Positions 30,153 to 46,508 of a stretch of DNA of 64,000 nt are shown piece by piece; position 1 is the stretch's first letter, and the number at the start of each line of letters is the position of its first letter. The DNA comes from an uncultured Candidatus Saccharibacteria bacterium. GTDB taxonomy: Bacteria > Patescibacteriota > Minisyncoccia > Minisyncoccales > JANBVM01. Below the pieces are notes generated by a model, which was given only the letters and a program-made list of their open reading frames with translations, was not told the DNA's origin and did not search any database. The DNA is taken from assembly GCA_964493485.1 (NCBI GenBank), contig CAZBMQ010000003.1, positions 8,468 to 72,467 on the forward strand. The letters run 5' to 3'. Position numbers and translations under genes: made by a program.

Positions 30153-30554
30153 TCAATATACCACTTCAATAGCACGGCTTGTGTTTTTATAAGCTCCGAT
30201 AGATTTTATGGTGGTAGTACCAGTAGTGCTGGTAGAAAAAGTTACATCATAGCTTGCCTCATTACTTAGAATAGTAGAGGTAGTATATGGGGCAATCAAA
30301 CCCCTGCAGACAGAAGTACAATATACTGGAGGACTACTTGTTGAACAAGCAGGAGGGTAGCAGCTTTTGTCTTTATACAAAACAGCCTCCACCCCGCTGT
30401 CAGCTGCATAAAAAGCAACTACAGAATAACCAAGTTCTCTTAATGTCTTACTTTGTCTAATAAAAATAATGCTTGTTCCCAAGGCAATGCCCAATACAAA
30501 ACTTAGAATTAAGACAGCAAGCATTATTGATAATCCTTTTTGGTTAATATCCAT
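30153..30554 (-). CDS. PilX-like minor pilin / pilus tip-associated protein (non-canonical N-terminus)
   Basis: N-terminal NQKGLSIMLAVLILSFVLGIALG resembles the PilX_N pattern (QRG..L...AL..L..LG) rather than the G|FTLIE prepilin motif. Last gene of the minor-pilin operon. Ser/Thr-rich C-terminal half. Confidence 0.4.
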   Translation of the reverse strand: MDINQKGLSIMLAVLILSFVLGIALGTSIIFIRQSKTLRELGYSVVAFYAADSGVEAVLYKDKSCYPPACSTSSPPVYCTSVCRGLIAPYTTSTILSNEASYDVTFSTSTTGTTTIKSIGAYKNTSRAIEVVY

Positions 30555-30567
30555 AATTTTTCAAGTT

Positions 30568-31158
30568 TTAATACAAAACATCAAGGTTTCTTTGAGACAC
30601 GGTGGTCTGAAGTTTCACAGCCGGAGAATTGGAAACCCCTCTTTTTTCAATCTCAAAAGAAAGTGTGACTCTTGGCTGATTATCATCATCTTGGTTCTCT
30701 CCATAAATCCTAAATTCAAGCTGCTTTACCTCCAAGTCGTCTGAAGTCAAAAACAAAATTTCTGAACCCCTTTCTTCTTTTATCCTTCCATTCTCTAAAT
30801 AAAAAGAATGACACTGTTCGTTATGGTCTTTAAAGTTTATTCTATGATTAGAATCTTCTAATTCATAATTCACATTGTCTCCAGAAAGACAACTTACTCC
30901 ATCTAAATCATCTTTCAACGCCATTCTTAAAGACCGACTCATATATTCTGCAACATAGGAAGCATTATCAGTAATTTCTCTAAGAATGAGGGCTCTGTTT
31001 TGTCCTTTTAAAGAAGAGACAAAAATGCCGGTTGGAGCAGCAACCAAAATCGCAAATATGGTGACAGCTACTATAAGCTCCACTAAGGTGTATCCTTTTG
31101 TTTTATTTAAACCTTCTGTTAACTCTTTGTTATGTTTATTTTTTGTATTATCTCTCAT
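30568..31158 (-). CDS. Prepilin-type (type IV pilin-like) minor pilin
   Basis: KGYTLVELIVAVTIFAIL, a class III signal with G|Y cleavage site and Glu+5. Confidence 0.7.
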   Translation of the reverse strand: MRDNTKNKHNKELTEGLNKTKGYTLVELIVAVTIFAILVAAPTGIFVSSLKGQNRALILREITDNASYVAEYMSRSLRMALKDDLDGVSCLSGDNVNYELEDSNHRINFKDHNEQCHSFYLENGRIKEERGSEILFLTSDDLEVKQLEFRIYGENQDDDNQPRVTLSFEIEKRGVSNSPAVKLQTTVSQRNLDVLY

Positions 31159-31687
31159 ACCAATTTGATAAATCTTCTACTACTTCTATGCTATGACTCC
31201 TTTCTCTCTCCTGCCATTCTACTATTACTTTCACTTCCATTTTATCAGACCCTTTTGGGGTAATAATTATTTTTCTTTTGAACTTTGTAGGTGTACCAGA
31301 GTCATAGCTGTAGAATCCATTTGTGTCAATATTAAGATATCTAAGATTGGAAGAATTACAATTTGAAACATTTGTCAAAGAAGTATAGATCTTATAGTCT
31401 CCCTCACAACAATTTGGAGATTGACAATTAGTAAGACCATCGTCCCAAGATACAGAGCTGGATCTTGACTCAAGCCAGTTGCTATCTCTGATATTTCTTA
31501 CTATTTCTATTCCTTCTTGAGCTAAATAAGCAGCAGTCACTTTAAGTTCAACCATTGAGGCGCCGGAAAGACTCTGACGGAGCAAAGCAAAAGCGCCTCC
31601 TATTCCTACAGTAAGAATAAAAATAGCAGTAATTACTTCCAAAAGAGTAAATCCTAACTTTTCTTTTTTGGGTAAGTATTCATTCAT
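31148..31687 (-). CDS. Prepilin-type minor pilin
   Basis: MNEYLPKKEKLGFTLLEVITAIFILTVG. The ATG at 31687 is preferred over the overlapping ORF-track start at 31738. Confidence 0.7.
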   Translation of the reverse strand: MNEYLPKKEKLGFTLLEVITAIFILTVGIGGAFALLRQSLSGASMVELKVTAAYLAQEGIEIVRNIRDSNWLESRSSSVSWDDGLTNCQSPNCCEGDYKIYTSLTNVSNCNSSNLRYLNIDTNGFYSYDSGTPTKFKRKIIITPKGSDKMEVKVIVEWQERERSHSIEVVEDLSNWYER

Positions 31688-31724
31688 TTTTTGCTCTTTG
31701 ATTATTATATAAAAAATACAACTT

Positions 31725-32300
31725 TTAATCGATATCAATTAAGCCTGCTTTATTTATAGTAATAGTTCTGGTCTTTGAGTAATCTGTTTCTAAAGCAAAT
31801 GTAATCTTTGTCTCTGTACCATTGTCTGACTGAATCCTTTTTATTTTTATCACGGGGTCTGGAGGCCTGAAATTGATAGAAATCTGATTAGAATCTATAG
31901 AATCCATCTTTATATCTATAATCACCACCCCCTTTTCTAATTCTATTGTTTCTATCTCCTCTCCTGCGGTATAAATCTCATCTCCGTTCTCATCTGCATA
32001 CAAAATATAAGATGTATTATTGGGAGATGTATCTCTGAAATAAATCCCATAGCCCGGGGGAACTCCCCCTCCACATTCTTGGCATTCCATACCTGACATA
32101 GTTTTCTCTTGAGCAACCCTTATATCTTGAGAAACCTGGTGAACTGCTCTGTTTAATGAAAATTCTCTTTCTCCCATTCTATAGCTTGCCAGTACAAAAG
32201 TAGTCAAAATAATAATCATTCCTGAGACAACCAAAAGCTCTACCAAAGTGAATCCTTTATATCTTCTTTTTAAATCATATTTTTTTATTAATTCAAACAT
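31725..32300 (-). CDS. Prepilin-type minor pilin (GspH/FimT-like)
   Basis: KGFTLVELLVVSGMIIILTTFVL. Confidence 0.7.
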   Translation of the reverse strand: MFELIKKYDLKRRYKGFTLVELLVVSGMIIILTTFVLASYRMGEREFSLNRAVHQVSQDIRVAQEKTMSGMECQECGGGVPPGYGIYFRDTSPNNTSYILYADENGDEIYTAGEEIETIELEKGVVIIDIKMDSIDSNQISINFRPPDPVIKIKRIQSDNGTETKITFALETDYSKTRTITINKAGLIDID

Positions 32301-32316
32301 TTACTTTTAAAATATA

Positions 32317-34845
32317 TTACGGAGAAATCTCACGCCATTGAGGAAGAGGAACTGTAACATACAACTTGTATGAAACCTGGTCTGATCTTCCATTTTGGTC
32401 AACAACTGAGAGGGTAACAAGACCTGAATTAGAGCTTAAAGCTTCAAATGTAGCTGAAGGATTTTGGGCGTTGCTTGTAGATGGAGTACCGTCTGTAAAT
32501 GTCCAGCTCCAAGAAGTAATAGGCCAGTAGCCGCCTGATGTGTTTTCAGAACCTGTGGAGGTGTCTTTGAAATACACCCTTGCTCCTTCTGATACCTTGA
32601 AACCATCACAGCTCTGCCAACCTGAGTCAGGTTTCAAGGAACATTCAAAGTCTGCGATGATGTCTTGGCTAACATAAAAATCATGAGTTGTGGCATCTGT
32701 CGAACCTGCTGTATCTTCAACCTCCAGTTCAGCATAATACCACTGACTGGCAGGCATATTGGCAGGTAAGGTTATATCACAAATTGCTTCATTTTGTCCT
32801 GAGGTCAACATATTATCTGTGCATACTGTATAATCCTCTTGATATGGGGTCCCTCCCTGATAAAAGATAGACCATGTAGAAGTGACAATATCGTTGTTAT
32901 CGTCTGGATCAAGATAGGATCTTTCATAACTATATGCTACTCCGCAGTTTGGACATTCAATATCAGAATTATAACTACCAGCTACAACATCAGGATAGCA
33001 TTCATTTTCATCTTGATATCTCACACATCCTACTGATACATTGCGGAATCCAAACAAAGCACTGCTGTCGCTGCCGGGATACTCAATATATATATCATAG
33101 TCCTTATCCATTGAAGAAGAACCAAAATATATATACACTGCTCCACAATCTGAACATTTTGCGTCAGAATAAGGAGCGCCTACCACCACATCATCATAGT
33201 TGTCTTTATTAATATCTTCTGCAAAAACTGCACTTCCAAAATCAATAAGATTTAAAAGAGAACCAGGTTCATTTCTTGGATATTCAAGATATACATCATA
33301 ATCGCTGTCCATTGAACTTCCTCCATAATATACATACACAGCTCCACAATAAGTGCATTTGACATCAGACCAATTGGCGCCAGAAATCACATCATCATAG
33401 CCATCATTATTTACATCTCCTGCAGCAACTGAAAAACCCAAATGAGCAATATCACTTCCTGGATATCTTAAATAAACATCATAATTGCCATCCATCGAAG
33501 AAGAACCATAATAAACAAATACAGCTCCACCGTCACTACACTCATAATCAGAAAGAGAAGCTCCCACTATTGCATCATCATAACCATCATTATTTACATC
33601 TCCTGCAGCAGCAGCTTCTCCCAATCTCGCAGTTGAATCATTCCAAGGATATTGAAGATATACATCAGAGGTAGCTGTGGCTGAAAGAAAAGCAGAGCCG
33701 AAATAAATATAAGCTGCACCACAGTCAGTGCACTTTGTATCATCAGTAAACGCTGTAACTATCACATCGTCAAAATTGTCATTATTAAAATCGCCAAAAT
33801 ACACTGATTTACCAAAATTTCCTATTAAAGAATCACTGTCTGTTCTTGAATACTCAAGATACACATCATAATCGCCATCCATTGGATTGCCTCCATAAAA
33901 AATATAAGCTGCCCCGCAATCAGTGCATTTTGCGTCAGATTTAGGAGCCCCAACAACTACATCATCATAGCCATCATTATTAATATCTCCACCTGAAAAC
34001 ACTATATAACCAAATTCTGAACCAGCATCATTTTTAGGATATTTAAGATATAGGTCTGGACTAGAAGTAGAGGGCATTGAATTAGAGCCATAAAAAACAT
34101 ATACAGCTCCGCTATCTGTGTAATCTGCATCAGCATAAGGAGCACCTACAATAATATCTTTGTAACCATCATTATTCAGATCTCCCGTAGCAGATACAGC
34201 AAGTCCATACTGAGAATTATCTGTCAAGGGATATTTAAGGTAGATATTGTGGACAGAATAAAAATCAGTAGATTGGTTTATTAAATTAAAAATACAGTCT
34301 TTATTGTATGTTCCCCATACACCGTTGCAAGCAGCGCCTTGACATAAAGAACCATCACAGGAAAAAGCAGCTGTGGGAGGAGTATTTTCTGGAGCTCCTC
34401 CTCCTTCACTTACATCAACTTCTTTAGCACAATTAGCCGGGCAGTTTCCCGGATCACCTGACCAATTTCCATCATTATCCTGTACCCTTAATTTGGCACA
34501 AAAAGTCCCTGTAGTAGTATAAGTATGTTTTACAGTATCGCTAGTGGTTGTTATTTTTGGAGAACCATCTCCAAAATCAAATTCATACTGAGTTATTGTG
34601 CCATCAGTATCATGACCTGACCCTGTAAATGTAACCTGTAATGGAGGCAAACCGTTAGCAGGAGTTCTTGATAAAGAATCGCAAACAGGAGGAATAGTAT
34701 ATCCTACTGTTACCTTTACATAATCTGTCGCTAAATCATAATCTATTGATATTACGGCTTTGACAGCAAAGCTCTTTAATAGAAAACTACCTATTATTAA
34801 CAAGAAGATGCTCCATATTAAATTCTTTGATTTCTTAAAAAACAT
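32317..34845 (-). CDS. Giant secreted surface protein: N-terminal PKD domain, ~7 FG-GAP/integrin-alpha-like repeats, C-terminal PKD module
   Basis: Signal/TM N-terminus. PKD motif (VTFTGSGHDTDGTITQYEFDFGDGS). Repeated units (DLNNDGYKDIIVGAP, DINNDGYDDVVVGAP, DVNNDGYDDAIVGAS, ...). Its C-terminal 103 aa are identical to those of the protein at 40717..42531. Confidence 0.7.
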   Translation of the reverse strand: MFFKKSKNLIWSIFLLIIGSFLLKSFAVKAVISIDYDLATDYVKVTVGYTIPPVCDSLSRTPANGLPPLQVTFTGSGHDTDGTITQYEFDFGDGSPKITTTSDTVKHTYTTTGTFCAKLRVQDNDGNWSGDPGNCPANCAKEVDVSEGGGAPENTPPTAAFSCDGSLCQGAACNGVWGTYNKDCIFNLINQSTDFYSVHNIYLKYPLTDNSQYGLAVSATGDLNNDGYKDIIVGAPYADADYTDSGAVYVFYGSNSMPSTSSPDLYLKYPKNDAGSEFGYIVFSGGDINNDGYDDVVVGAPKSDAKCTDCGAAYIFYGGNPMDGDYDVYLEYSRTDSDSLIGNFGKSVYFGDFNNDNFDDVIVTAFTDDTKCTDCGAAYIYFGSAFLSATATSDVYLQYPWNDSTARLGEAAAAGDVNNDGYDDAIVGASLSDYECSDGGAVFVYYGSSSMDGNYDVYLRYPGSDIAHLGFSVAAGDVNNDGYDDVISGANWSDVKCTYCGAVYVYYGGSSMDSDYDVYLEYPRNEPGSLLNLIDFGSAVFAEDINKDNYDDVVVGAPYSDAKCSDCGAVYIYFGSSSMDKDYDIYIEYPGSDSSALFGFRNVSVGCVRYQDENECYPDVVAGSYNSDIECPNCGVAYSYERSYLDPDDNNDIVTSTWSIFYQGGTPYQEDYTVCTDNMLTSGQNEAICDITLPANMPASQWYYAELEVEDTAGSTDATTHDFYVSQDIIADFECSLKPDSGWQSCDGFKVSEGARVYFKDTSTGSENTSGGYWPITSWSWTFTDGTPSTSNAQNPSATFEALSSNSGLVTLSVVDQNGRSDQVSYKLYVTVPLPQWREISP
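32359..32667. repeat. 309-bp perfect direct repeat, copy A (encodes the shared C-terminal PKD module)
   Basis: Checked line by line against 40762..41070 at a constant offset of 8403 nt. No mismatches or indels were seen. Confidence 0.85.
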
Positions 34846-34852
34846 AAAATCT

Positions 34853-35641
34853 CTATTTACATGTATTGGTATATTGAATAATAGCTCCTAATGCCAGCAC
34901 AGTGGTATGAGGACTATCAGCCCAACTTCCATTTTCTTTTTGACATTTTAAAATATTTTCAATCCATTCTTGCTTCACAGGAAACCCCGCATATCCAAGA
35001 AATAAAGCTCTTTCACAATATACATCTAAAAAAGCTATATTATTGCAAAAAATAGAAAAATCTTCTTGTTTCGTATCTTTATCCTCAGCTGCTATCAATT
35101 CTTTGGCTAATTCTTTCATTAATGGATCTAAAGTATTTCCATAGCATCCTTTTTCTTTCATTAAAGACAATGCGTGTAAAAGATGAATTGAATTATATCT
35201 TACATCCCTTTCTACTTCATTTATATCCTTTAACACTTCATTATAATCAATATTTTTGCAACACATAGCTTTTATTGTAATTCGTTCAAGTAAAGAAAAG
35301 AAGGATATTTCTTTTAGTAGCTCAGAGATATTCTGATTTCTACAAGAAGAATTGTAAAGCTCAAAAAAAAGCTTTTTGTTGCTATTTTCCTCTGCACTCT
35401 TTATCTTCCAAAGCTCCTCTAGTCTCTCATCATGGCATATTTTATTAAGTTTTTGAATTAAAAGAATTATTCCTACATCAAACTTTTTTTCTGTAGTTAA
35501 AAGAAAAACTATTCCTTTCTCAATTGCGCTGCTGCTTTGTCTCTTAAAGGGTTCCGAATAATTAATTACCAACCAAAACAATATTCCTAATATTAATAAT
35601 GGGCCTAAAAGTAAAAGTATGTGTTTTATTGTAAACTTCAT
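34853..35641 (-). CDS. Hypothetical membrane-anchored protein (262 aa) with a weak prenyltransferase/squalene-cyclase-like repeat at the C-terminus
   Basis: N-terminal TM. The C-terminal segment QKENGSWADSPHTTVLALGAI resembles a Q..dGgW...T..AL repeat. The match is weak. Confidence 0.3.
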   Translation of the reverse strand: MKFTIKHILLLLGPLLILGILFWLVINYSEPFKRQSSSAIEKGIVFLLTTEKKFDVGIILLIQKLNKICHDERLEELWKIKSAEENSNKKLFFELYNSSCRNQNISELLKEISFFSLLERITIKAMCCKNIDYNEVLKDINEVERDVRYNSIHLLHALSLMKEKGCYGNTLDPLMKELAKELIAAEDKDTKQEDFSIFCNNIAFLDVYCERALFLGYAGFPVKQEWIENILKCQKENGSWADSPHTTVLALGAIIQYTNTCK

Positions 35642-38087: not shown

Positions 38088-39614
38088 ATGTTTTTGAAAA
38101 AGATTGAAAAACTAATATTCAGAATTGAAAATTCAAAAGTTCCTTTTGCTTATTTTTTATCTACATTCTTCTTTTTAATTATTTTTAGATATTTTTTAGA
38201 AATGTTCTCTACTGACTTTTTATTCTCTCCATCTGATTTTTATCATATTTTTCTTTTTTTTCTCTCATGTCTCTTAACATTTGTTTTATTGTTCCATTTC
38301 AGTACGAAAGAAAATATAGAAAAGATAGTACGGTTTCTTTTCCTCTCTTTTGGTGTTATACTTCTTACTCCATTATTAGATATAATTCTCACTAAAGGAA
38401 AAGGTTATAAAATGACATATATTCTTCCAGGAGTCCACAAAAATCTACTCTTAAGATTTCTCACTTTTGGGGGATCTTTTCACAAAGACGGTTTATCTCC
38501 TGGTATAAAAATAGAAGTAGGATTAATTCTGTTGGGATGCTTTGTTTATTTTTTAATAAAGAACAAAAATATCTTCAAAAGCTTATTTTTTACATTTTTT
38601 GCATATCTTATTATATTTTTATTTGGAATTGCCCCATTTTTAGCAAAAGCATTTCTGCAGTTATTTAATTTACAATACAGGTTTTCAGCTTCCTTGATGA
38701 TAAATTTTTATCTCTTACTGCTCTTTATTTTAAGTATATGGATATTCTATCTTTACAATAAAAAATTCTGTATAGAAATATTTAAAGACATAAGACCATT
38801 TAGATTATTACACTATGAACTGATGTTTATGTTGGGATTTGTAATAAGAGAGGTTTCTTTTATGGGAGATAAGGCTCAATTTTCACAAGAGCTTTTGTTT
38901 TCATGGATATTTATAATAATTGCAATAATGTATGCAGGTTTATTCTCTGGTATTACGAACAACTTAGCAGATTATGAAATAGATAAAATAAGCAACCCAA
39001 ACAGGCCTACAGTTGCTAATACCATTCCGATAAAGGAATATAAAATGCTTTCTGGTGTCTTCCTGATGCTCGCAATAATCTATTCTCTTGCAGCAAGTTA
39101 TATGAGTTTGTTTTTAATCTTATTATTAATAGGGAGCTACTTTTTATATTCAGTTCCACCCTTAAGATTAAAAAGAATCACATTTTTTTCAAAAATTCTT
39201 ATTTCTCTCAATGCAATCACAGTAATGATGCTTGGTTATAGTCTCAATAGCATTAATTACAGCATATTTCTTCCTTCTAAAATCATTTTCTTTTCTTTAA
39301 TATTTTTAACAGCCAGTATTAATTTCATTGATATTAAAGATTACAAGGGAGACAAAAAAGCAGGGATTAAAACCCTGCCGGTTATTCTTGGGTTAGAAAA
39401 AAGTAAAAAAGTCATTGGGCTGTTTTTTCTTATTTCTTATCTTGCTTTTTATTTTCTTTTAAAGGATAATTTCTTGCTGCCTTTTTTGATTTTATTTGGT
39501 ATTATTGAGTTTCTTCTTATCAATCGAAAAAAATATAACGAAAAACCAGTATTTTTGGTTTATTTATTAAGTGTAATCTCATTAATTATCTATCTCCTTT
39601 TTTTTAACTTTTAA
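38088..39614 (+). CDS. Polytopic membrane protein: unknown N-terminal ~250-aa multi-TM domain fused to a UbiA-family prenyltransferase domain
   Basis: First UbiA Asp-rich motif NNLADYEIDKISNPNRP (NDxxDxxxD-like). Second motif DIKDYKGDKKAGIKTLPVILG (DxxDxxxD...GxxT). 508 aa with about 14 hydrophobic segments. Confidence 0.65.
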   Translation: MFLKKIEKLIFRIENSKVPFAYFLSTFFFLIIFRYFLEMFSTDFLFSPSDFYHIFLFFLSCLLTFVLLFHFSTKENIEKIVRFLFLSFGVILLTPLLDIILTKGKGYKMTYILPGVHKNLLLRFLTFGGSFHKDGLSPGIKIEVGLILLGCFVYFLIKNKNIFKSLFFTFFAYLIIFLFGIAPFLAKAFLQLFNLQYRFSASLMINFYLLLLFILSIWIFYLYNKKFCIEIFKDIRPFRLLHYELMFMLGFVIREVSFMGDKAQFSQELLFSWIFIIIAIMYAGLFSGITNNLADYEIDKISNPNRPTVANTIPIKEYKMLSGVFLMLAIIYSLAASYMSLFLILLLIGSYFLYSVPPLRLKRITFFSKILISLNAITVMMLGYSLNSINYSIFLPSKIIFFSLIFLTASINFIDIKDYKGDKKAGIKTLPVILGLEKSKKVIGLFFLISYLAFYFLLKDNFLLPFLILFGIIEFLLINRKKYNEKPVFLVYLLSVISLIIYLLFFNF

Positions 39615-39621
39615 ACTCTTA

Positions 39622-40641
39622 TTAGGGTTTACAGCAATATACTTGAAAAAAATGATCAGCAGAACCTGAGGGAGTAATATATACTCCTTTCACATAATAT
39701 CCATCATTACATAGATGGGTGCCAGTAGAAGGATTAGAGGGTTCCCAATAACAATCGCTTGTTCCTAAATTTCCATGGATCACACCGGGACCCGTCACAC
39801 TTAAATCTCCTTCGTCAGACATCAAAATATGTGTTGTTTGAGGACACTGAACATTTTGTACCTCAAACTCACTAGAACCATATAGTCCACCGCCGAAATT
39901 GAATCGATCCCAGCATTTTGTTCCAATAGGTTCTGTGGCCAAATCACACTGAGAACATTCAAATCCAGAACCTGTATCGCAGGCGCATTGAGGACTCTCT
40001 AAACCCATAGATGAATTGCCCGTGGAAACATAACCTTTTTGGGTAGCATCTTTTGTTCCCTTTAAATCAAATTTAGCAGTAGGATTGGTTGTCCCAATAC
40101 CTAAACGTTTATTTGTATTATCCCAATATAAATTAGAATCTGAAGTAATGCTGTTCCCGCTATTAAAAAATGCAATTCTGTTGGCACTTCCGCTTCCCTC
40201 AATAGTACCCTTATCATCTGCGCAAATCCAGTTGTTGTTTGCGCTATCATATTTTAATATCTGATTGTTGCTACAATAAGCACCCGACGGTTGAATACCT
40301 CTTAGTCTGCCTTCTATAAAAACATCGCCTGAAGTCTTGATGCCCATTGGATTGCTTGCAGTGCCCACTGTTAAACCATAGGAGGAATCATAAGTCTCTC
40401 CTTCTGGAATTGAAATACCAAGCCATCCTTTATTGCTGTCATTAACATATCTCTTAACCTGACCAGTTCCTGTGGCATTTAGAGGAGGTGCCACATTACC
40501 TCCAGGCGGGTTTTGAGAAGGACCTGTCCAAGCAAAAATATATAAAACAGAAAGCAAAGAAAATATCAATACACCAATGCTAATAGGTATTAATTGGTTT
40601 TTGGTTTTCATATTCATATATTTTTCAATCAGCTTCCCCAA
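39622..40641 (-). CDS. Secreted tail-fibre-like protein (GIGTTNP motif) with a Cys-rich C-terminus
   Basis: N-terminal TM/signal. Motif NLYWDNTNKRLGIGTTNPTAKFDL, typical of phage tail-fibre-like proteins. C-terminal cluster CACDTGSGFECSQCD...VYCCKP. Confidence 0.5.
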   Translation of the reverse strand: MGKLIEKYMNMKTKNQLIPISIGVLIFSLLSVLYIFAWTGPSQNPPGGNVAPPLNATGTGQVKRYVNDSNKGWLGISIPEGETYDSSYGLTVGTASNPMGIKTSGDVFIEGRLRGIQPSGAYCSNNQILKYDSANNNWICADDKGTIEGSGSANRIAFFNSGNSITSDSNLYWDNTNKRLGIGTTNPTAKFDLKGTKDATQKGYVSTGNSSMGLESPQCACDTGSGFECSQCDLATEPIGTKCWDRFNFGGGLYGSSEFEVQNVQCPQTTHILMSDEGDLSVTGPGVIHGNLGTSDCYWEPSNPSTGTHLCNDGYYVKGVYITPSGSADHFFQVYCCKP

Positions 40642-40716: not shown

Positions 40717-42531
40717 TTAATACGGAGAAGCTTCCTGCCATTGAGGAAAAGATTTAGTAATATACAACTTGTATGAAACCTGGTCTGATCTTCCATTTTG
40801 GTCAACAACTGAGAGGGTAACAAGACCTGAATTAGAGCTTAAAGCTTCAAATGTAGCTGAAGGATTTTGGGCGTTGCTTGTAGATGGAGTACCGTCTGTA
40901 AATGTCCAGCTCCAAGAAGTAATAGGCCAGTAGCCGCCTGATGTGTTTTCAGAACCTGTGGAGGTGTCTTTGAAATACACCCTTGCTCCTTCTGATACCT
41001 TGAAACCATCACAGCTCTGCCAACCTGAGTCAGGTTTCAAGGAACATTCAAAGTCTGCGATGATGTCTTGTAAAATCTTAAAAGATTGATTGACAATATC
41101 TACTTCTCCAGCATAATCTTCTACATGCAATTCTGCATTATAGTCTCCTGAAGGAAAGTATGAAGGCATTGTCCAATTGCAAAGAGGATCAACAGTACAA
41201 TGTAGGGTGTCATTTGTCTCTCCTGTAATAATCCAGGTAGAGCTTGCAATATCTCCCTGACCATCAGGATCAGTAGAATCGTTTTTTAAACAAAAGAGAG
41301 AACGGGTATATCCAGTACAAGAACCCGGAGACTGACTGCAGCCTTCTGGATAACAAGTTATATCAGCTGTTGGGGGATTATTACCTCCTTCACCCTCAGT
41401 AACAATAATCTGTTGGGTACAGGTATCAGGACAATCTCCTGGAGTTTCAGACCAATCACCATAATCGTCTTGAACCCTTAATTTCGCGCAATAAGTCCCA
41501 GTGGCATTGTATGTATATTGAGCAGTATTTTCAGATGTAGTGATTTTATTAAAATTCCAACTACAGAGACCACAGGGACTGCAACTCTCCTCTGAATCGA
41601 GAGAAGAACAGTCTCTTGATGGACCCGTGCAAAATCCTGACACCTTGTCCCAAGAACATCCACAAGCCTCACATGCTGCTTGAGTTAAAGCTAAACCGCA
41701 AACAATACTTCCCTCACATGCTCCCTCGCCAGTATTAAACTCATATTGAACAATTGTTCCTGTTTCATCTTGATCATGGCCTGAACCAGTAAAATTAACC
41801 GTTAAAGGAGCGTCACCTGAAGAAGGATTGGCTATTAAAGAATCACACACCGGAGTAAGGTTAGTTGAGGGAAGATTCCATTCGGCAATTTTATAATTAG
41901 AAGTAGTACATTCCTCTTCATTTAAACAATTGAAGGAAATCCACCCAAAATCATCTGACCATGCCCAACCTTCGAATTCACCTGTATCTCTATTAATCAC
42001 AAGATTAGGATCTGCATTTAAGCTTATCCATCCATCCCATTCTCCCGCATCGGGATTTAAAGGACCACTGCACCCTGATTGAAAAACATAGCAAGCTCTT
42101 GCCCAACCACCAACAGGTTCTTCCGGGTCTGTCTTCATGGAGCTGGTATAAGCCTGACAGGGCGAAGAAGGACATCCTGCCAACTCAGACTCATTAAATG
42201 TTATCCATCCAATATTATCTGACCAGGCATAACCCTGTAAAAGACCAGGACAATATGGAGGAATCCCACCTAATGCTTCGTAGTCAATTTTTACTCCATA
42301 CTCAACAGAAGAACCATCTGTTTCACTGCTAAAGCTTATCCATCCAATATTGTCTGACCAAGCCCATCCATGAACCTCAACCAAACCTACACATTCTTCG
42401 CTTGGAGGAGGACCGGGAGGACCCAAGTCTCCTTTTGTTCTTGTTGCCGTTAAAATTAGTGCTCCGCAGACAACTAACAGAAATATTTTAATAAGTTGTC
42501 TTTTCTTAATAAAAGAAGAATTTTTAAACAT
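40717..42531 (-). CDS. Giant secreted surface protein: WSDxxGWISF repeat region, split PKD domain with a Cys-rich insertion, C-terminal PKD module
   Basis: Signal peptide. Three repeats (GWAWSDNIGWISF, YAWSDNIGWITF, GWAWSDDFGWISFNC). PKD blocks paralogous to 32317..34845 (GTYCAKLRVQDDYGDWSETPGDCP vs GTFCAKLRVQDNDGNWSGDPGNCP). Identical C-terminal 103 aa. Confidence 0.65.
   Translation of the reverse strand: MFKNSSFIKKRQLIKIFLLVVCGALILTATRTKGDLGPPGPPPSEECVGLVEVHGWAWSDNIGWISFSSETDGSSVEYGVKIDYEALGGIPPYCPGLLQGYAWSDNIGWITFNESELAGCPSSPCQAYTSSMKTDPEEPVGGWARACYVFQSGCSGPLNPDAGEWDGWISLNADPNLVINRDTGEFEGWAWSDDFGWISFNCLNEEECTTSNYKIAEWNLPSTNLTPVCDSLIANPSSGDAPLTVNFTGSGHDQDETGTIVQYEFNTGEGACEGSIVCGLALTQAACEACGCSWDKVSGFCTGPSRDCSSLDSEESCSPCGLCSWNFNKITTSENTAQYTYNATGTYCAKLRVQDDYGDWSETPGDCPDTCTQQIIVTEGEGGNNPPTADITCYPEGCSQSPGSCTGYTRSLFCLKNDSTDPDGQGDIASSTWIITGETNDTLHCTVDPLCNWTMPSYFPSGDYNAELHVEDYAGEVDIVNQSFKILQDIIADFECSLKPDSGWQSCDGFKVSEGARVYFKDTSTGSENTSGGYWPITSWSWTFTDGTPSTSNAQNPSATFEALSSNSGLVTLSVVDQNGRSDQVSYKLYITKSFPQWQEASPY
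40762..41070. repeat. 309-bp perfect direct repeat, copy B
   Basis: Identical to 32359..32667. Confidence 0.85.
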
Positions 42532-42541
42532 CTTAAATTAA

Positions 42542-43351
42542 TTATAACAAAAGATTAAAGTAAAGATTAATTAATTTATCTCCATAGAAAAAAGCCAAAA
42601 AAGTTCCTGTGATTAAAAATGGAGCAAACGGAATTTCTGATTTTAATTTCTTTTTACCAAGAAAAATTAATATTATACCTATTATAGCCCCTATAAAAAA
42701 ACTTAAAAAAATAGCCACCGCAATCCTTGGAAACCCCAGAAAAATACCCATAAAAAAGGCTAATTTCACATCACCCATACCCATTCCTTTTCCTCGAGAA
42801 ATAAAAACTATTGCCAAAAAAAATAGACTTGCTCCAATACCTGAGAAAAGAATATTAAATATATTGTATTTAAAAAAAGGAGAAAAGAAAATCCTTGAAA
42901 TTAAATACCACACAGCAGTCGTCAAAACAGCGGGATAGATTACTCTATCTGGAATAATATAATACTTTACATCATAAACAAAAATGACAATCAGAAAACA
43001 ACAAATAATAAATAAAAAAAAGAGGTCTAAAACCCAAAAAAGAACAGGGATAGAAAATAATGATTCTATGTTTTTTAAAAAAATAAAAGAAAATAAAAGC
43101 CCTGTTGATAACTCCACTAAGGGATATTGAATAGAGATAGGCTTTTGGCAATACCTACATCTTCCTTTTAAGATAATAAAACTTAAAATAGGAATCAAAT
43201 CAATGGCATGTAAGGTATGACCGCAATAAGGGCAGTAAGATCTTTTGGATAGAAAGCTTTGTTTTTTAGAAAGTCTATATATAACGCAGTTCAAAAAAGA
43301 ACCAATTATCAATCCAAATATAAAAATGAAAAATGAAAAGAAAATATTCAT
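42542..43351 (-). CDS. pilD: Prepilin peptidase (A24 family, PilD)
   Basis: N-terminal Zn-finger CPYCGHTL...CRYCQKPI. Catalytic-Asp region [16 protein letters not shown]. Polytopic, 269 aa. Confidence 0.85.
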
Positions 43352-43390: not shown

Positions 43391-43924
43391 CTAAAAACAG
43401 GTACAGCTACCCATTACACTGGGTTCTTCTTCTAACTCACACTTTTTTGTTCCTTTATGGGAAGCACAAAAATATACCTTATTACCAGGAGTTGCAGGTT
43501 CTTCTTCTAATATAGCGTAAGCGCAAAACCAATCTCCAGCAGAAAGACTGCCAAGATCCGGATCACTGCATAATATGTTGAAGCGGTTATCTACCCATAC
43601 ATAATCAGTACATGCCTCTCCCGGACATTGCGGATCATGCAAGGGGCTCAGATAACGATAAATCGCAGGAACTCCTCCCTCTTCTGGGGGAGCGGCAGTA
43701 AAATATCTATCGTTAAAGCCAAAGTATATTCCTTGAGCTGAAACCAATTGTCTCATATCTGACTGTCTCATCGCATCTCTTGCGCTGCTTCTTGCTCCTT
43801 TTAAATATGTAAAAACCACAGTAGAAAGTGTTCCAATAATAGCAATAACAACCAATAGCTCGATCAAAGTAAAACCTTTAAGTTTTTTAATCCTAAAGTG
43901 TTTGCTTCTTAATACTTGCATCAT
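43391..43924 (-). CDS. Type IV pilin (major pilin paralog 3)
   Basis: [22 protein letters not shown] class III signal. C-terminal Cys pairs consistent with a D-region disulfide. Confidence 0.8.
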   Translation of the reverse strand: MMQVLRSKHFRIKKLKGFTLIELLVVIAIIGTLSTVVFTYLKGARSSARDAMRQSDMRQLVSAQGIYFGFNDRYFTAAPPEEGGVPAIYRYLSPLHDPQCPGEACTDYVWVDNRFNILCSDPDLGSLSAGDWFCAYAILEEEPATPGNKVYFCASHKGTKKCELEEEPSVMGSCTCF

Positions 43925-44029
43925 ATAATTTAAAAAATTAATAAGTTTTAAAAATAGGCCTTTATTGTGTTTATTATATTATAATTTAAAAAAACAAGCG
44001 AGAAAAAAACTGAAAAACTATATCTTAAC

Positions 44030-44557
44030 TTACATTGCAAATTTAATACAACTACTTAATGTTGGAAGATGGCCTGCTGTATATGTCTCATCAGAACATA
44101 CTTCCTTAACCCCTCTATTTGAACTTACAAAATACCGGTGGGAAGTAGGACATCCCTCAAGATTTTCTAATTCTGCAAAAACACAAAACACATCACTTGT
44201 TGTAGCAGTTTCTGTATTGTCTAACCATATATAATCTATATGATTGGAACAGACTCCATCAGGACATAGTGGATCATGTAAGCCTATCAGATAGTTTCCA
44301 ATAGGAGGAGTTCCATCTGTTTTCTCAGTATTCTCAAAATATGTCTCATTGTCTATATAATACATTTCCTGCGCTGTAGCCAATTGTCTCATATCTGTCA
44401 TTCTATTTGTATCTCTTGCTCTCCTTCTTGCCCCTCCCAAAGACACCAAAACAATTCCAGATAAGGTTCCAATAATAGCAATAACAACCAATAGCTCAAT
44501 CAAAGTAAAACCTTTTTCTTTTTTAAGCCTTAAAAATCTCCATTTCAAGGTCTCCAT
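44030..44557 (-). CDS. Type IV pilin (major pilin paralog 2)
   Basis: [30 protein letters not shown]. The N-terminal coding DNA is identical to paralog 1 over 102 bp. Confidence 0.8.
   Translation of the reverse strand: METLKWRFLRLKKEKGFTLIELLVVIAIIGTLSGIVLVSLGGARRRARDTNRMTDMRQLATAQEMYYIDNETYFENTEKTDGTPPIGNYLIGLHDPLCPDGVCSNHIDYIWLDNTETATTSDVFCVFAELENLEGCPTSHRYFVSSNRGVKEVCSDETYTAGHLPTLSSCIKFAM
44427..44528. repeat. 102-bp perfect repeat (pilin 5' coding segment), copy 1
   Basis: Identical to 45103..45204 by direct reading. A near-identical shorter segment lies in the third pilin at ~43836-43885. Confidence 0.8.
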
Positions 44558-44625
44558 AAATAAAAATACATATAAAACTTATTTTATTAATTATACTAAA
44601 AAGTACGGAGAAAAATAAAGTTAAA

Positions 44626-44656
44626 TTGGCGGGTTTTTGCCCGCCAATTTTTCTCT
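44626..44656 (-). terminator. Putative terminator hairpin (ttggcggg-tttttg-cccgccaa) between pilin genes
   Basis: 8-bp GC-rich stem with A/T-rich flanks on both strands. Downstream of the pilin at 44700..45206. Confidence 0.35.
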
Positions 44657-44699
44657 CCATGATAACTGATTTTCAAAACTATCTACCTCCTAATCTAAA

Positions 44700-45206
44700 C
44701 TACAGATTAAAGTCACGACAATTTGCTAATGTGGGGCAATTTGCAGTATCATCCCGTGCAGTATCACTACAAACTTCTTGGACTCCTTTATCAGAAGCAA
44801 CATAGTATCGGTAGTTTGTAGTACAGCTTCCAAGGTTTTCTAATCTAGCAAAGGCGCAAAAACTAGTTGTAGCGGTAGTACCGTTGTTAACCCACACATA
44901 ATCTACATGAGTAGTACAAGTACCACCAGGACATTGTGGATCATGTAAAGCAACTAAATAATTTCCAATTGCAGGAATACCTGCTGTACAACTGCCTGGA
45001 GTTCCATTAGCATAATATCCTTCATGATCTCCATAATACATCTCTTGAGCAGTAGTTACTTGTCTCATATCAGACTGTCTGTTTGCATCCCTTGCCTTAC
45101 TCCTTGCCCCTCCCAAAGACACCAAAACAATTCCAGATAAGGTTCCAATAATAGCAATAACAACCAATAGCTCAATCAAAGTAAAACCTTTTTCTTTTTT
45201 AAGCAT
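44700..45206 (-). CDS. Type IV pilin (major pilin paralog 1)
   Basis: [50 protein letters not shown]-terminal Cys residues. Confidence 0.8.
45103..45204. repeat. 102-bp perfect repeat (pilin 5' coding segment), copy 2
   Basis: Identical to 44427..44528. Confidence 0.8.
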
Positions 45207-45305: not shown

Positions 45306-46508
45306 CTAAATAGACATCATCTGATACATAGGCATTAGTATTGAAAACATTAATCCTCCTACTATCAAACCTAAAGAAACAATCAATAAAGGCTCCAATA
45401 TTCCCAACATAGCAACCACACCTTCCTCCACCTCTCTCCTGTAAAAAAGAGCTATCTTCATTAAGCTGGTGTCTAATGTTCCTGTCTTTTCACCTACCAA
45501 TGCCATCTGAACAAACACAGGAGGAAAAATTTCTGGATAAAGAGCCAAAATAGAAGAAATAGGCACACCCCTTCTTACTTCATCTTTGGTCTTTAGAATA
45601 GCTTTTTTGTACATAGAATTTCCAACCACATCAGCTGATAACTCTAAGGCCTGGGCTATCATTATTCCTCCTGAAATCAAAGTGGAAAGATTCTCAGCTA
45701 ATCGGGCTAAATACATTGTTTTCATCACTGTACCTATAACTGGAATTTTAAGAAGAATCCTGTCTATAACATCTTTTCCCTGCTCTGTTTTATAAATTCT
45801 ATAAAGAACAAACAAAAAGACAAAAACTCCCAATATAAAAAAGAAGCCGTAGTCTTTTAAAAAACCTGCAGCTTTCAATATCTTCATTGTAAATTCCGGC
45901 ACCTCTGCTCCGCTTTCTTCAAGCACTGTCTGAAATTGGGGGATTACAGTATAAATCATCAAAATTATAACAAAGCTCACCAGCATAAGAATAAAAATTG
46001 GATATACCATAGCTCCCTTTATCTTTGAAGCCAACTGATATTGTCTTTCTAAATAGTCTGCCAAGTAATTTAATGACTCTGCCAATTTTCCTGAAGCTTC
46101 ACCTGATTTTATCATAGAGATATATAGGTCAGAAAAAATCTCAGGATAGCGGGAAAGAGCCTTAGACAAAGCTGTTCCTCCTTCAACATCTTCTGAAATA
46201 TTTAGAATCTTCTCTCTAAAATCTGCATTTTTTGTCTGACTTGATAAAACCCTCAAACTTTCCACTAAAGGAACCTTTGCATTAAACATCATTGCCAATT
46301 GTCGTGAAAAGATAACAATATCTTTTTGAGATATTCTACTGAAAAACTCTAACTTCTTTGCATAAAATGGAAGTTTTTCTTCCTCTAAGTATGTAACATA
46401 AAATCCATGCTTCTGTAAAAGTGAAAGAGCTGCATCTTTTGAAGAAGCTTCTACAATTCCAGCCCGAACATCTCCTTCTTTAGTTCTGGCTTGATAATTA
46501 AATTTCAT
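45306..46508 (-). CDS. pilC: Type IV pilus inner-membrane platform protein PilC (GspF family)
   Basis: Two GspF repeats, 3 TM segments, 400 aa, adjacent to pilT/pilB. Confidence 0.9.
   Translation of the reverse strand: MKFNYQARTKEGDVRAGIVEASSKDAALSLLQKHGFYVTYLEEEKLPFYAKKLEFFSRISQKDIVIFSRQLAMMFNAKVPLVESLRVLSSQTKNADFREKILNISEDVEGGTALSKALSRYPEIFSDLYISMIKSGEASGKLAESLNYLADYLERQYQLASKIKGAMVYPIFILMLVSFVIILMIYTVIPQFQTVLEESGAEVPEFTMKILKAAGFLKDYGFFFILGVFVFLFVLYRIYKTEQGKDVIDRILLKIPVIGTVMKTMYLARLAENLSTLISGGIMIAQALELSADVVGNSMYKKAILKTKDEVRRGVPISSILALYPEIFPPVFVQMALVGEKTGTLDTSLMKIALFYRREVEEGVVAMLGILEPLLIVSLGLIVGGLMFSILMPMYQMMSI

What the first reader, a model, noticed from the sequence alone, without database searches (positions are those of the whole stretch)
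40717..42531. Paralogous giant surface protein with novel WSDxxGWISF repeats and a PKD domain split by a Cys-rich insertion
The N-terminal region has three copies of a ~13-aa Trp-rich motif (GWAWSDNIGWISF / YAWSDNIGWITF / GWAWSDDFGWISFNC). Each is followed by Cys- and Pro-rich linkers; I do not recognise this repeat as a named family. The central PKD-like block is homologous to that of the FG-GAP protein (…GTYCAKLRVQDDYGDWSETPGDCP…) but is interrupted by a Cys-rich insert (ACEGSIVCGLALTQAACEACGCSWDKVSGFCTGPSRDCSSLDSEESCSPCGLCSW). It lies directly downstream of pilD and the pilins on the same strand.
Basis: seen in the sequence. Interest (0 to 1): 0.6.

Follow-up and report, generated by a model that had tools for sequence, protein, structure and literature searches.

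The report
Tryptophan-hairpin domain on pilus-linked adhesin
This gene, in the type IV pilus locus of an ultrasmall (CPR/Patescibacteria) bacterium, encodes a secreted 604-residue protein whose tryptophan-rich "repeats" are really one compact domain from a very large family with no Pfam or NCBIfam model, and whose conserved tail suggests it docks on the pilus tip as a swappable adhesin.

Summary
ORF 40717-42531(-) has three GWAWSDxxGWISF motifs, a PKD domain split by a 57-residue Cys-rich insert, and starts 10 nt after pilD. It is 604 aa, so it is not giant.

- **One domain, not loose repeats.** The motifs, plus a fourth degenerate copy, are the hairpins of a single ~160-aa all-beta domain (AF2 pLDDT 85, pTM 0.82).
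- **No match to anything named.** Foldseek found nothing in PDB or BFVD (best TM 0.33). No Pfam or NCBIfam model hits it. Only a side branch of the family touches ChW, weakly and over half the profile.
- **Large family.** About 9,800 clusters at 50% identity, nearly all Patescibacteria. Members are fused to Ig/PKD domains and never to enzymes.
- **Conserved tail.** Half of complete members, the target, and its FG-GAP paralog end in PxWxE[IV]xP. This tail is almost absent from other proteins.
- **Pilus link.** Proteins with this tail, with or without the Trp domain, sit immediately upstream of a conserved four-gene minor-pilin operon. That is the position the PilY1 tip adhesin holds relative to its minor pilins.

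Best reading, from synteny and analogy only: a PilY1-like exchangeable pilus-tip adhesin. The tail would dock by beta-strand addition, and the Trp domain would be the binding head.

The parts
40717..42531 (-). Whole gene: 604-aa secreted modular protein. Layout: signal peptide, Trp-hairpin domain, three PKD/Ig-like domains, C-terminal peptide.
   Evidence: ORF list. Pfam finds only PKD. The exact protein is in public collections but unnamed. A second assembly gives 602/604 identical residues.
42442..42531 (-). N-terminal signal peptide or membrane anchor (aa 1-30: basic n-region, hydrophobic IKIFLLVVCGALILTA, possible cleavage after LTA). A Pro-rich linker GPPGPPP follows.
   Evidence: Read from the sequence. 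AF2 predicts a helix at aa 10-27. Homologs have hydrophobic N-termini with AxA-type sites 5-8 residues before the first motif. There is no G-F-T-L-x-E prepilin motif.
41881..42390 (-). Trp-hairpin domain (aa ~48-217), a single all-beta domain built from four hairpin units.
   Evidence: AF2 with a 146-sequence alignment: pLDDT 84.8, pTM 0.82. Profile searches give 673 and 9,798 relatives. No Foldseek hit at E<=1e-3 in PDB or BFVD.
42331..42369 (-). Hairpin 1: GWAWSDNIGWISF (aa 55-67).
   Evidence: DNA repeat family D4.
42196..42234 (-). Hairpin 2: GYAWSDNIGWITF (aa 100-112).
42019..42111 (-). Hairpin 3, degenerate and expanded: GGWARACYVF...GEWDGWISL (aa 141-171).
   Evidence: Aligns with the conserved GWARAL...GWDGWIxL unit of homologs.
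41932..41970 (-). Hairpin 4: GWAWSDDFGWISF (aa 188-200).
41719..41859 (-). PKD domain 1, N-terminal half (aa 225-271).
   Evidence: 60% identical to paralog aa 51-95. PKD_4/PKD hits. ColG/ColH PKD chains match this stretch in the PDB.
41548..41718 (-). Cys-rich insertion in PKD1 (aa 272-328, 10 Cys). It contains two half-repeats of the form C-x8-C-x2-C-G-(x)-C-S-W.
   Evidence: Absent from the paralog at exactly this point. No Pfam family. No homologs found. Low AF2 confidence. Present in the second assembly.
41401..41547 (-). PKD domain 1, C-terminal half (aa 329-377).
   Evidence: 46% identical to paralog aa 97 onward. PKD_4 best stretch is aa 324-361.
41071..41379 (-). Second Ig/PKD-like domain (aa ~385-487).
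   Evidence: Aligns to paralog aa 157-194 and 646-726. Only a weak Big_13 hit. AF2 confidence is low.
40750..41070 (-). Third PKD domain (aa 488-594). 310 nt of it (40753-41068, within this PKD3 part) are 100% identical to 32350-32665 in the FG-GAP paralog.
   Evidence: K319L-like_PKD 24.4 bits. AF2 pLDDT about 90.
40720..40749 (-). C-terminal peptide KSFPQWQEASPY, an instance of the family motif (L)P(L)Px[WFY]xE[IV]xP.
   Evidence: The Glu is at least 90% conserved in alignment A6. The motif is in 40/77 complete family ORFs against 6/637 other ORFs, 3 of which are really family members. Statistics.
39622..40641 (-). Downstream partner gene: 339-aa protein with a signal/anchor, then AWTGPSQNPPGGNVAPPLN, then a weakly tail-fibre-like body.
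   Evidence: The same type of protein lies within 300 bp of the family gene in 18 of 80 loci and within the flank in 30 of 80. Weak tail-fibre PHROG hit.
42542..43351 (-). pilD (prepilin peptidase), ending 10 nt upstream of the target.
   Evidence: A24_N_bact 1e-33 and Peptidase_A24 1e-15.
43391..45206 (-). Three pilin genes (177, 175 and 168 aa).
   Evidence: N_methyl motif hits. Terminator-like hairpin after the first pilin gene.
32317..34845 (-). Paralog: 842-aa PKD + FG-GAP propeller + PKD protein ending PLPQWREISP. It lies immediately upstream of the minor-pilin operon.
30153..32300 (-). Minor-pilin operon: three prepilin-like genes (191, 196 and 196 aa) plus a 133-aa pilin-like gene that has no Glu5.
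   Evidence: N_methyl hits. Sequences. The same four-gene operon appears in other CPR contigs.

Best explanation
The gene encodes a Sec-secreted, disulfide-rich modular surface protein from a CPR/Patescibacteria type IV pilus (T4P) locus.

Its four Trp-rich hairpins (three canonical, one degenerate) fold together into one ~160-residue all-beta domain at the mature N-terminus. This domain belongs to a very large family that has no Pfam or NCBIfam model. A stalk of three PKD/Ig-like domains follows; the first carries a lineage-specific Cys-knot insertion in a loop. The protein ends in a conserved ~10-residue peptide (PxWxE[IV]xP).

Proposed mechanism, by analogy with PilC/PilY1/MshQ: the extreme C-terminal peptide docks the protein onto the minor-pilin tip complex by beta-strand addition. 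The PKD stalk projects the Trp-hairpin domain outward as the ligand-binding head. The FG-GAP paralog shares the last PKD domain (310 nt identical) and the tail but has a different head. The two would therefore be alternative heads on the same docking module.

**Shown:** gene structure, domain boundaries, family size, absence of any family or fold match, motif enrichment, and operon synteny.
**Inferred:** secretion and signal cleavage, docking by strand addition, and the head or binding role of the Trp domain.
For: **Locus**
- The window carries a complete T4P set: pilM, pilO, pilB, pilT, pilC, three pilins and pilD. The target follows pilD directly.

**Trp-hairpin domain**
- It is modelled confidently as one domain: pLDDT 84.8, pTM 0.82.
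- It is usually N-terminal, directly after a signal peptide.
- Fusion partners are Ig_Rha78A_N (30/81), PKD (28/81), fn3 and LamG. No member carries an enzyme domain.

**C-terminal motif**
- Found in 40/77 complete family ORFs against 6/637 other ORFs. Three of those six are family members the regex missed; two others are PKD-type neighbours such as the FG-GAP paralog.
- The Glu is at least 90% conserved.

**Synteny**
- In family-centred loci L006, L053 and L063, the Trp-domain protein with this tail lies immediately upstream of the same four minor-pilin genes that follow the FG-GAP paralog in the window.
- In an independently ascertained set of loci centred on minor pilin 3, 9 of 42 loci of at least 5 kb carry a large protein ending ...PLPEWxE[VI]xP. 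In every case it is on the same strand and directly upstream of minor pilin 1. At least 3 of these carry the Trp domain.

**Shared docking end**
- 310 nt are identical between the target and the paralog across the last PKD.

**Precedent**
[quoted passage not shown] For PilC/PilY1, and for MshQ by AlphaFold modelling only, they are modelled to add a beta-strand to PilK-family minor pilins (PMC13533445).
- In Saccharibacteria, T4P components with large accessory domains and non-canonical signals mediate glycan-dependent host binding (PMC11623550).
Against: - No structural or experimental test of docking was possible. There was no multimer modelling.
- The motif is proline-rich, and only about 5 residues (xWxE[IV]) could form a strand.
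- Most family-centred loci show no pilin genes in the 6-kb flanks: 12 of 80 have them, and only 4 are adjacent. The commoner neighbour is the 'PPGGN' fibre-like protein.
- The target itself is 8.4 kb from the minor-pilin operon; the position right next to it is held by the paralog.
- The target has no PilY1/PilC domain or beta-propeller.
- Its tail (FPQWQEASPY) departs from the consensus: Ala replaces Ile/Val after the Glu.
- Nothing shows that the Trp domain binds a ligand. Its tryptophans may simply form the core.
Confidence: 0.5

Rival explanations
1. The Trp-hairpin domain is a cell-wall anchor, a distant relative of ChW, GW or choline-binding aromatic hairpin repeats. It would hold the protein on the bacterium's own peptidoglycan, with the PKD stalk and C-terminus pointing outward.
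For: - GW-dipeptide hairpin repeats are typical of wall-binding modules.
- 10 of 146 relatives hit Pfam ChW near its cut-off (best 24.4 bits against 22).
- ChW is considered a wall-interaction module of unknown ligand (PMC5817068).
- The domain sits right after the signal peptide, so it would be membrane-proximal if the signal is not cleaved.
Against: - The target and most relatives give no ChW hit, even at E<=10.
- The hits that exist cover only positions 3-23 of the 35-position profile.
- The units form one closed domain of four hairpins, not an open array.
- ChW proteins are mostly endolysins, whereas this family has no enzyme fusions.
- Members also occur in Planctomycetota/Pirellulales- and Elusimicrobiota-labelled MAGs. 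Those phyla have a different envelope type (my own knowledge).
- This reading does not explain the conserved C-terminal peptide or the minor-pilin synteny.
Confidence: 0.15
2. The protein is a pilus-independent surface protein that works with the adjacent 'PPGGN' fibre-like protein. The C-terminal PxWxE[IV]xP peptide would be a sorting or attachment signal for an unknown CPR envelope system. Alternatively, the Trp domain binds the Pro-rich N-terminal peptide of the fibre protein. Proximity to pilus genes would be incidental clustering of surface genes.
For: - A PPGGN-type gene lies within 300 bp of the family gene in 18 of 80 loci and in the flank in 30 of 80. Pilin genes are in the flank in only 12 of 80.
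- In the window, the PPGGN gene follows the target after 75 nt.
- The neighbour has weak tail-fibre similarity.
Against: - In loci chosen through a minor pilin, not through this family, tail-bearing proteins always occupy the slot directly upstream of minor pilin 1, on the same strand.
- The tail is followed by no transmembrane segment or charged cluster, unlike known sorting signals.
- Several tail-bearing proteins beside pilins lack the Trp domain (L101, L137 and the window paralog). This ties the tail, rather than the PPGGN partner, to pili.
Confidence: 0.25
3. The architecture is an assembly artefact or a decaying gene: a chimera created by the 310-nt exact repeat shared with the FG-GAP gene, with the Cys-rich insert as junk.
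For: An exact 310-nt repeat 8.4 kb apart is the kind of sequence that can misjoin metagenome contigs. No homolog of the insert was found.
Against: - The reading frame is intact for 604 codons.
- An independent assembly on a 108-kb contig encodes a 602/604-identical protein, including the insert. Its only two differences lie inside the repeated segment.
- The insert has an ordered Cys pattern and falls exactly in a PKD loop.
Confidence: 0.03

Closest known systems
PilC/PilY1 type IV pilus tip adhesins (and MshQ of the MSHA pilus)
   Same: - Large Sec-type non-pilin proteins encoded next to a syntenic minor-pilin operon.
- Variable N-terminal adhesive part.
- Paralogs with different heads in one genome.
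- A short conserved peptide at the extreme C-terminus; in PilC/PilY1 this peptide docks by beta-strand addition to a PilK-type minor pilin (PMC13533445).
   Different: - No PilY1/Neisseria_PilC domain is detected. The target has PKD domains where PilY1 has its C-terminal beta-propeller; the paralog does have an FG-GAP propeller.
- In these CPR operons the gene lies upstream of the minor pilins.
- The target itself sits after pilD, not beside the minor pilins.
- The tail sequence (PxWxE[IV]xP) is a motif defined here.
- Docking is untested.
ChW (Clostridial hydrophobic W) repeat, Pfam PF07538
   Same: A Trp-rich beta-hairpin unit with a conserved GW dipeptide, found in extracellular proteins. 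A side branch of this family scores at the ChW threshold.
   Different: - The target does not match ChW.
- The matches that exist cover only the first half of the ChW unit.
- ChW units are about 50 aa, occur in open arrays of 1 to 12, and are mostly found on endolysins of Firmicutes and Actinobacteria.
- Here, four ~35-45-aa units close into one domain on non-enzymatic CPR proteins.
PKD domains of clostridial collagenases ColG/ColH
   Same: Both halves of PKD1 and the last PKD align to these solved domains (E = 5e-6 for ColH). Both are beta-sandwich spacers in secreted proteins.
   Different: PKD1 here carries a 57-residue, 10-Cys insertion in the loop after the WDFGDG-type motif. There is no catalytic domain.
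Saccharibacteria TM7x PilX1/PilX2 (large T4P components with accessory lectin-like domains)
   Same: CPR T4P-locus proteins with large accessory domains and non-canonical signal peptides. They are proposed as host-binding tip adhesins (PMC11623550).
   Different: PilX1 and PilX2 are described as pilin-like 'lollipop' proteins with C-terminal jelly-roll or propeller domains. The target has no pilin-like N-terminal helix or globular head.

Membership tests
Trp-hairpin domain family (unnamed; defined here by alignments A2/A3) | Significant profile match across all four hairpin units | tested here: met
   The target N-terminus retrieves 31 relatives (best E = 6e-30). Profile searches retrieve 673 and 9,798 relatives. 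Invariant G/W columns are shared.
Trp-hairpin domain family (unnamed) | Signal peptide, then the domain at the mature N-terminus, Ig/PKD stalk, and a C-terminal PxWxE[IV]xP tail | tested here: met
   The target ends FPQWQEASPY, with Ala in place of the usual Ile/Val.
PKD domain (Pfam PF18911/PF00801) | HMM score above the curated cut-off | tested here: met
   PKD_4 50.2 bits against 27; PKD 37.9 bits against 23.5.
PKD domain (Pfam PF18911/PF00801) | Contiguous ~85-residue beta-sandwich | tested here: not met
   PKD1 is interrupted by aa 272-328 relative to the paralog. The HMM matches it in two stretches.
ChW repeat (Pfam PF07538) | HMM score above the cut-off (22 bits) on the protein | tested here: not met
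   No hit on the target at E<=10. 0 of 81 and 10 of 146 relatives hit.
ChW repeat (Pfam PF07538) | Match over the full-length ChW unit, including its second half | tested here: not met
   Matches in relatives cover only profile positions 3-23 of 35.
PilC/PilY1 tip adhesin | Encoded with the core minor-pilin operon | tested here: inconclusive
   The target lies in the T4P locus directly after pilD, but 8.4 kb from the minor pilins. The paralog and family members L006, L053, L063, L100, L105 and L143 lie directly upstream of the operon.
PilC/PilY1 tip adhesin | PilY1/PilC C-terminal beta-propeller domain | tested here: not met
   Pfam and NCBIfam give no such hit on the target. The paralog has an FG-GAP propeller.
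PilC/PilY1 tip adhesin | [quoted passage not shown] | not testable with these tools
   A conserved terminal peptide exists. Multimer modelling was not available.
Type IV pilin / minor pilin | Class III signal (G|F-T-L-x-E) followed by a hydrophobic N-terminal helix | tested here: not met
   No N_methyl hit. The N-terminus is MFKNSSFIKKRQLIKIFLLVVCGALILTATRTKG, with no G-F-T-L-x-E.
Choline-binding / other named wall-binding repeats (CW_binding_1, SLH, LysM, SH3b, GW) | Any Pfam hit | tested here: not met
   None at E<=0.1 on the protein, and none at E<=10 on the domain.

The most novel reading that the evidence does not exclude
The Trp-hairpin domain is a previously unseen fold that serves as the receptor-recognition head of CPR type IV pili. 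It would be one of several interchangeable heads (Trp domain, FG-GAP propeller, others) plugged onto a common PKD + PxWxE[IV]xP docking cassette that inserts into the minor-pilin tip complex. Under this reading the domain would be a major determinant of which host cells these episymbionts attach to. The adjacent PPGGN fibre proteins could be a second ligand or partner, bound through their Pro-rich N-terminal peptide.
Probability: 0.2. Interest if true: 0.8.

Novelty: new variant of a known kind. Interest (0 to 1): 0.62.

Why it matters
CPR/Patescibacteria make up a large share of bacterial diversity and live attached to other microbes. How they recognise hosts is largely unknown, and T4P are the best-supported attachment organelle.

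- **A candidate docking tag.** A ~10-residue C-terminal tag that marks proteins loaded on the pilus tip would let candidate adhesins be listed directly from any CPR genome.
- **A target for structure and binding work.** A ~9,800-cluster domain family with no Pfam/NCBIfam model and no solved structural relative is an obvious target for structure determination and ligand screening.
- **Annotation.** The family deserves its own model, since these proteins are unnamed or called 'hypothetical' wherever a source name was seen here's searches.

Tried and rejected
**Searches that found nothing useful**
- Literature search for the motif strings (GWISF and similar, PPGGN) found nothing relevant.
- Sequence searches of the PDB with the protein and with the domain profile: only PKD hits and one chance hit.
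- PHROGs: nothing meaningful for the domain.
- IMG/VR viral contigs: no relatives, so the domain is not a phage receptor-binding module in that collection.
- The Cys-rich insert has no Pfam family and retrieved no homologs. It looks PSI-like by eye, but that was not supported by any test.

- The full-length AF2 model was poor outside the Trp domain and the last PKD (pLDDT 63.7), so it was not used for a fold search.

**Ideas considered and rejected**
- ChW membership: rejected (see the membership test).
- That the protein is itself a pilin: rejected, because there is no class III signal.
- An assembly chimera at the 310-nt repeat: rejected, because a second assembly gives the same gene.

**A method that had to be replaced**
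- My first automatic walk upstream of the minor pilins mislabelled pilins as 'upstream ORF'. I replaced it with a motif scan and manual inspection.
Full report
**1. What is in the sequence**

The ORF at 40717-42531 on the minus strand is real. It starts with ATG and encodes 604 residues, so it is mid-sized and not giant.

A loose regular expression for the motif matches nowhere else in the six-frame translation of the 64-kb window. Only 24 of 20,000 shuffles of the protein contained even one match. The DNA repeat finder also recovers the three copies (family D4).

Alignment with homologs shows a fourth, degenerate unit between the second and third motifs: GGWARACYVF...GEWDGWISL, aa 141-171. 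It corresponds to a conserved GWARAL...GWDGWIxL unit in relatives.

The stretches between the units carry Cys pairs (C120/C125, C147/C154, C202/C208) and prolines. This fits an extracellular, disulfide-bonded protein.

**2. The rest of the protein**

Pfam finds only PKD domains, and NCBIfam finds nothing.

BLASTP against the FG-GAP/PKD protein at 32317-34845 gives two adjoining alignments:
- target aa 225-271 aligns with paralog aa 51-95 at 60% identity;
- target aa 329-421 aligns with paralog aa 97-194 at 46% identity.

So aa 272-328 are an insertion directly after the WDFGDG-type loop of PKD1.

The insert holds 10 cysteines in two half-repeats of the form C-x8-C-x2-C-G-(x)-C-S-W. It matches no Pfam family and retrieved no homologs.

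The last ~115 residues are almost identical to the paralog's C-terminus. At the DNA level, 40753-41068 is 100% identical to 32350-32665, with divergent flanks. That pattern indicates recent gene conversion.

A second public assembly encodes a 602/604-identical protein. It includes the insert, and both differences fall inside the converted segment. The architecture is therefore not an assembly artefact.

**3. The Trp motifs form one domain of a very large family that has no Pfam or NCBIfam model**

| Search | Result |
|---|---|
| N-terminal region against 5.8 billion proteins | 31 relatives |
| Profile of the domain, same database | 673 relatives |
| Exhaustive HMMER scan of 1.84 billion cluster representatives | 9,798 at E<=1e-3; 3,597 at E<=1e-30 |
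| GTDB species genomes | 557 confirmed loci |

The best 80 GTDB loci are almost all Patescibacteria. Record labels include Nealsonbacteria, Paceibacterota, Yonathbacteria and Kaiserbacteria, plus many MAGs labelled Saccharibacteria. A few are labelled Pirellulales, Elusimicrobiota or something else.

AlphaFold2 with a 146-sequence alignment models aa 34-225 as a single all-beta domain, with mean pLDDT 84.8 and pTM 0.82. Each motif forms a hairpin.

**4. Relation to named families**

The target gives no Pfam hit on this region, even at E<=10.

A side branch of the family has very regular repeats (GYAWSENIGWISFSCENTSSCGTVNYGV). Two of its members carry Planctomycetota labels in NCBI. This branch touches Pfam ChW at its threshold: best 24.4 bits against a cut-off of 22, in 10 of 146 members. 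The match covers only positions 3-23 of the 35-position profile.

ChW is a GW-containing unit of about 50 aa. It is found mostly on endolysins of Firmicutes and Actinobacteria, and its wall ligand is unknown (PMC5817068).

I read this as a shared hairpin theme, possibly a very distant relationship, but not membership.

**5. Architecture of the family**

In most members the domain follows a signal peptide within 5-10 residues, often after an AxA-type site.

Among 81 representatives, the fused Pfam domains were Ig_Rha78A_N (30), PKD (28), fn3, LamG and other Ig-like modules. None had an enzyme domain. No relatives were found in IMG/VR viral contigs.

**6. A conserved C-terminal peptide**

Many members end in (L)P(L)Px[WFY]xE[IV]xP, followed by 0-2 more residues. 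Examples are PLPEWREVPPL, LPLPKWQEITPQ and PTWKEI.
- The Glu is at least 90% conserved in alignment A6.
- Among complete ORFs in the fetched loci, 40 of 77 family members carry the strict motif, against 6 of 637 other ORFs of at least 150 aa.
- Three of those six are family members that my regular expression missed. Two others are PKD-type proteins, including the window's FG-GAP paralog.

The target ends FPQWQEASPY and the paralog ends PLPQWREISP. No transmembrane segment follows the motif, so it does not resemble the LPXTG or PEP-CTERM classes of sorting signal.

**7. Genomic context**

The window holds a full type IV pilus set:

| Gene or feature | Coordinates |
|---|---|
| pilM | 51172-52251 |
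| pilO | 50080-50619 |
| pilB | 48029-49750 |
| receiver-domain gene | 47621-47989 |
| pilT | 46523-47593 |
| pilC | 45306-46508 |
| three pilins | 43391-45206 |
| pilD | 42542-43351 |
| **target** | 40717-42531 |
| 339-aa 'PPGGN' protein | 39622-40641 |
| UbiA-family gene (opposite strand) | 38088-39614 |
| 776-aa Cys-rich ORF | 35656-37986 |
| 262-aa ORF | 34853-35641 |
| FG-GAP paralog | 32317-34845 |
| three prepilin-like minor pilins | 30568-32300 |
| 133-aa pilin-like gene without Glu5 | 30153-30554 |

No terminator-like site separates pilD, the target and the 339-aa gene on their strand.

Around family genes in 80 loci:
- a 'PPGGN'-type gene lies within 300 bp in 18 loci and within the flank in 30; these encode a signal/anchor, then W-x-x-P-T-x-x-PPGGN-x-x-x-PLN, then a fibre-like body;
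- pilin genes lie within the flank in 12 loci and are adjacent in 4.

In L006, L053 and L063, the Trp-domain protein with the tail sits immediately upstream of four genes whose products are clearly orthologous to the window's minor-pilin set. Their C-termini are conserved...GLIEID...NWYE...TTISQRNLD.. and ...RAIExKY.

**8. An independent test of the tail-to-pilus link**

I used minor pilin 3 as the probe instead of the Trp family, and fetched 80 metagenome loci.
- Of 42 non-redundant loci of at least 5 kb, nine carry a large protein ending ...PLPEW[RKQY]E[VI]xP.
- In all nine it is on the same strand and ends just before minor pilin 1.
- At least three of the nine carry the Trp domain: L100 and L143 at the N-terminus, and L105 internally.
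- Others, such as L101 and L137, carry different N-terminal parts.

In many of the remaining loci, pilD is the gene directly upstream of the minor pilins. In that arrangement the family gene can lie a few kb away, as in L062. This is close to the situation of the target, which directly follows pilD.

The tail therefore tracks the minor-pilin operon. The Trp domain is one of several interchangeable N-terminal heads.

**9. Mechanism**

[quoted passage not shown] These residues are modelled to complete the beta-sheet of the PilK-type minor pilin inside the tip complex. The same is predicted for the unrelated large protein MshQ, which is encoded next to the minor pilins mshDOP (PMC13533445).

By analogy, I propose that the PxWxE[IV]xP tail is the strand-addition peptide of CPR pilus-tip proteins.

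The 310-nt identity between the target and the FG-GAP paralog across the last PKD domain fits two proteins that must fit the same docking site while displaying different heads. Neisseria (pilC1/pilC2; PMC13533445) and Myxococcus (my recollection, not checked here) likewise keep several PilC/PilY1 paralogs.

The Trp domain would then be the distal, ligand-binding end. In Saccharibacteria, pilus-mediated host binding depends on cell-wall glycans and on components with large accessory domains (PMC11623550).

All of this is inference from synteny, motif conservation and precedent. I could not model complexes or inspect the model's surface.

**10. Rivals**

- **Wall anchor of the ChW/GW type.** This fits the hairpin theme and the position next to the signal peptide. 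It fails the ChW tests and ignores the tail and the synteny.
- **Pilus-independent role with the PPGGN fibre proteins.** This is the commonest gene neighbourhood, so I keep it at about one chance in four. The two readings are not exclusive, because the window has pilus genes on one side of the target and a PPGGN gene on the other.
- **Artefact.** Excluded by the second assembly.

**11. Verdict**

What is there is larger than a curiosity of one gene:
- a ~160-residue Trp-hairpin domain that defines a family of roughly 10,000 clusters, mostly in CPR bacteria;
- a C-terminal tag that links these proteins to the minor-pilin operon.

I class it as a new variant of a known kind: a PilY1-like pilus-tip adhesin with a new head domain and a new docking motif. 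I have moderate confidence in the mechanism.

Noticed in passing
window 40753-41068 and 32350-32665: 310 nt are 100% identical between the target and the FG-GAP paralog, covering the last PKD domain, with divergent sequence on both sides. This looks like recent gene conversion. In a second assembly, the only two amino-acid differences from the target fall in this segment.
   Followed up: partly
window 39622-40641 (-); also L001:7293-7982, L003:7393-7977, L004:5157-5981: A family of proteins with a signal/anchor, then a conserved W-T-x-P-[ST]-Q-x-PPGGN-V-x-x-P-L-N peptide, then a fibre-like body (weak tail-fibre, collar and Gp10_C similarities). It is the most frequent neighbour of Trp-domain genes: adjacent in 18 of 80 loci. 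No literature was found on it.
   Followed up: partly
window 30153-32300 (-); same operon in L006, L053, L063, L100, L101, L105, L137, L143: A conserved four-gene CPR minor-pilin operon with characteristic C-termini (...GLIEID, ...NWYE, ...TTISQRNLD.., ...RAIExKY). The fourth gene is small, pilin-like, lacks Glu5, and matches no Pfam family.
   Followed up: partly
L100:6724-7077, L101:4729-5088, L105:8472-8846, L137:5382-5741, L062:3664-4041: Small ORFs of ~117-125 aa are inserted between genes of the adhesin and minor-pilin operon in several CPR contigs. They carry a conserved ...SDQLLR(A/S)ATSIGAN..EA... motif. By eye they resemble 'four-helix-bundle / 23S rRNA intervening sequence' proteins; I did not test this.
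   Followed up: no
window 35656-37986 (-): A 776-aa ORF with an N-terminal hydrophobic segment and a very Cys-rich body. It has no Pfam, NCBIfam or PHROG hit and lies between the target and the FG-GAP paralog in the pilus locus.
   Followed up: no
window 38088-39614 (+): A 508-aa polytopic membrane protein with a UbiA prenyltransferase domain in its C-terminal half. It is the only opposite-strand gene inside the run of pilus and surface-protein genes from about 30 to 52 kb.
   Followed up: no
window 44623-44650 (-), after the pilin gene 44700-45206: A strong terminator-like hairpin (11 pairs, 6 of them G-C) follows the first of the three pilin genes. This suggests that this gene is the highly expressed major pilin.
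   Followed up: no
window 47621-47989 (-): A stand-alone receiver-domain-like gene (122 aa) lies between pilB and pilT. I recognised it by eye from the sequence and did not scan it.
   Followed up: no
proteins P0039, P0069, P0075, P0134, P0140; locus L005: A branch of the family outside CPR, some members labelled Planctomycetota, has four very regular GYAWSENIGWISFSCENTSSCGTVNYGV units after an ENIDPxxDGSQYAYGENIGW lead-in, and short C-terminal regions unlike those of the CPR members. This is the only branch that touches Pfam ChW. The L005 flank shows no pilus genes.
   Followed up: partly
L117, L119, L121, L122, L138, L159: In one group of minor-pilin loci, the gene upstream of the pilins is a 717-aa protein ending ...KYASPEPTWGTWGSEE. 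Its tail differs from the PxWxE[IV]xP motif. It may be another class of pilus-associated protein.
   Followed up: no
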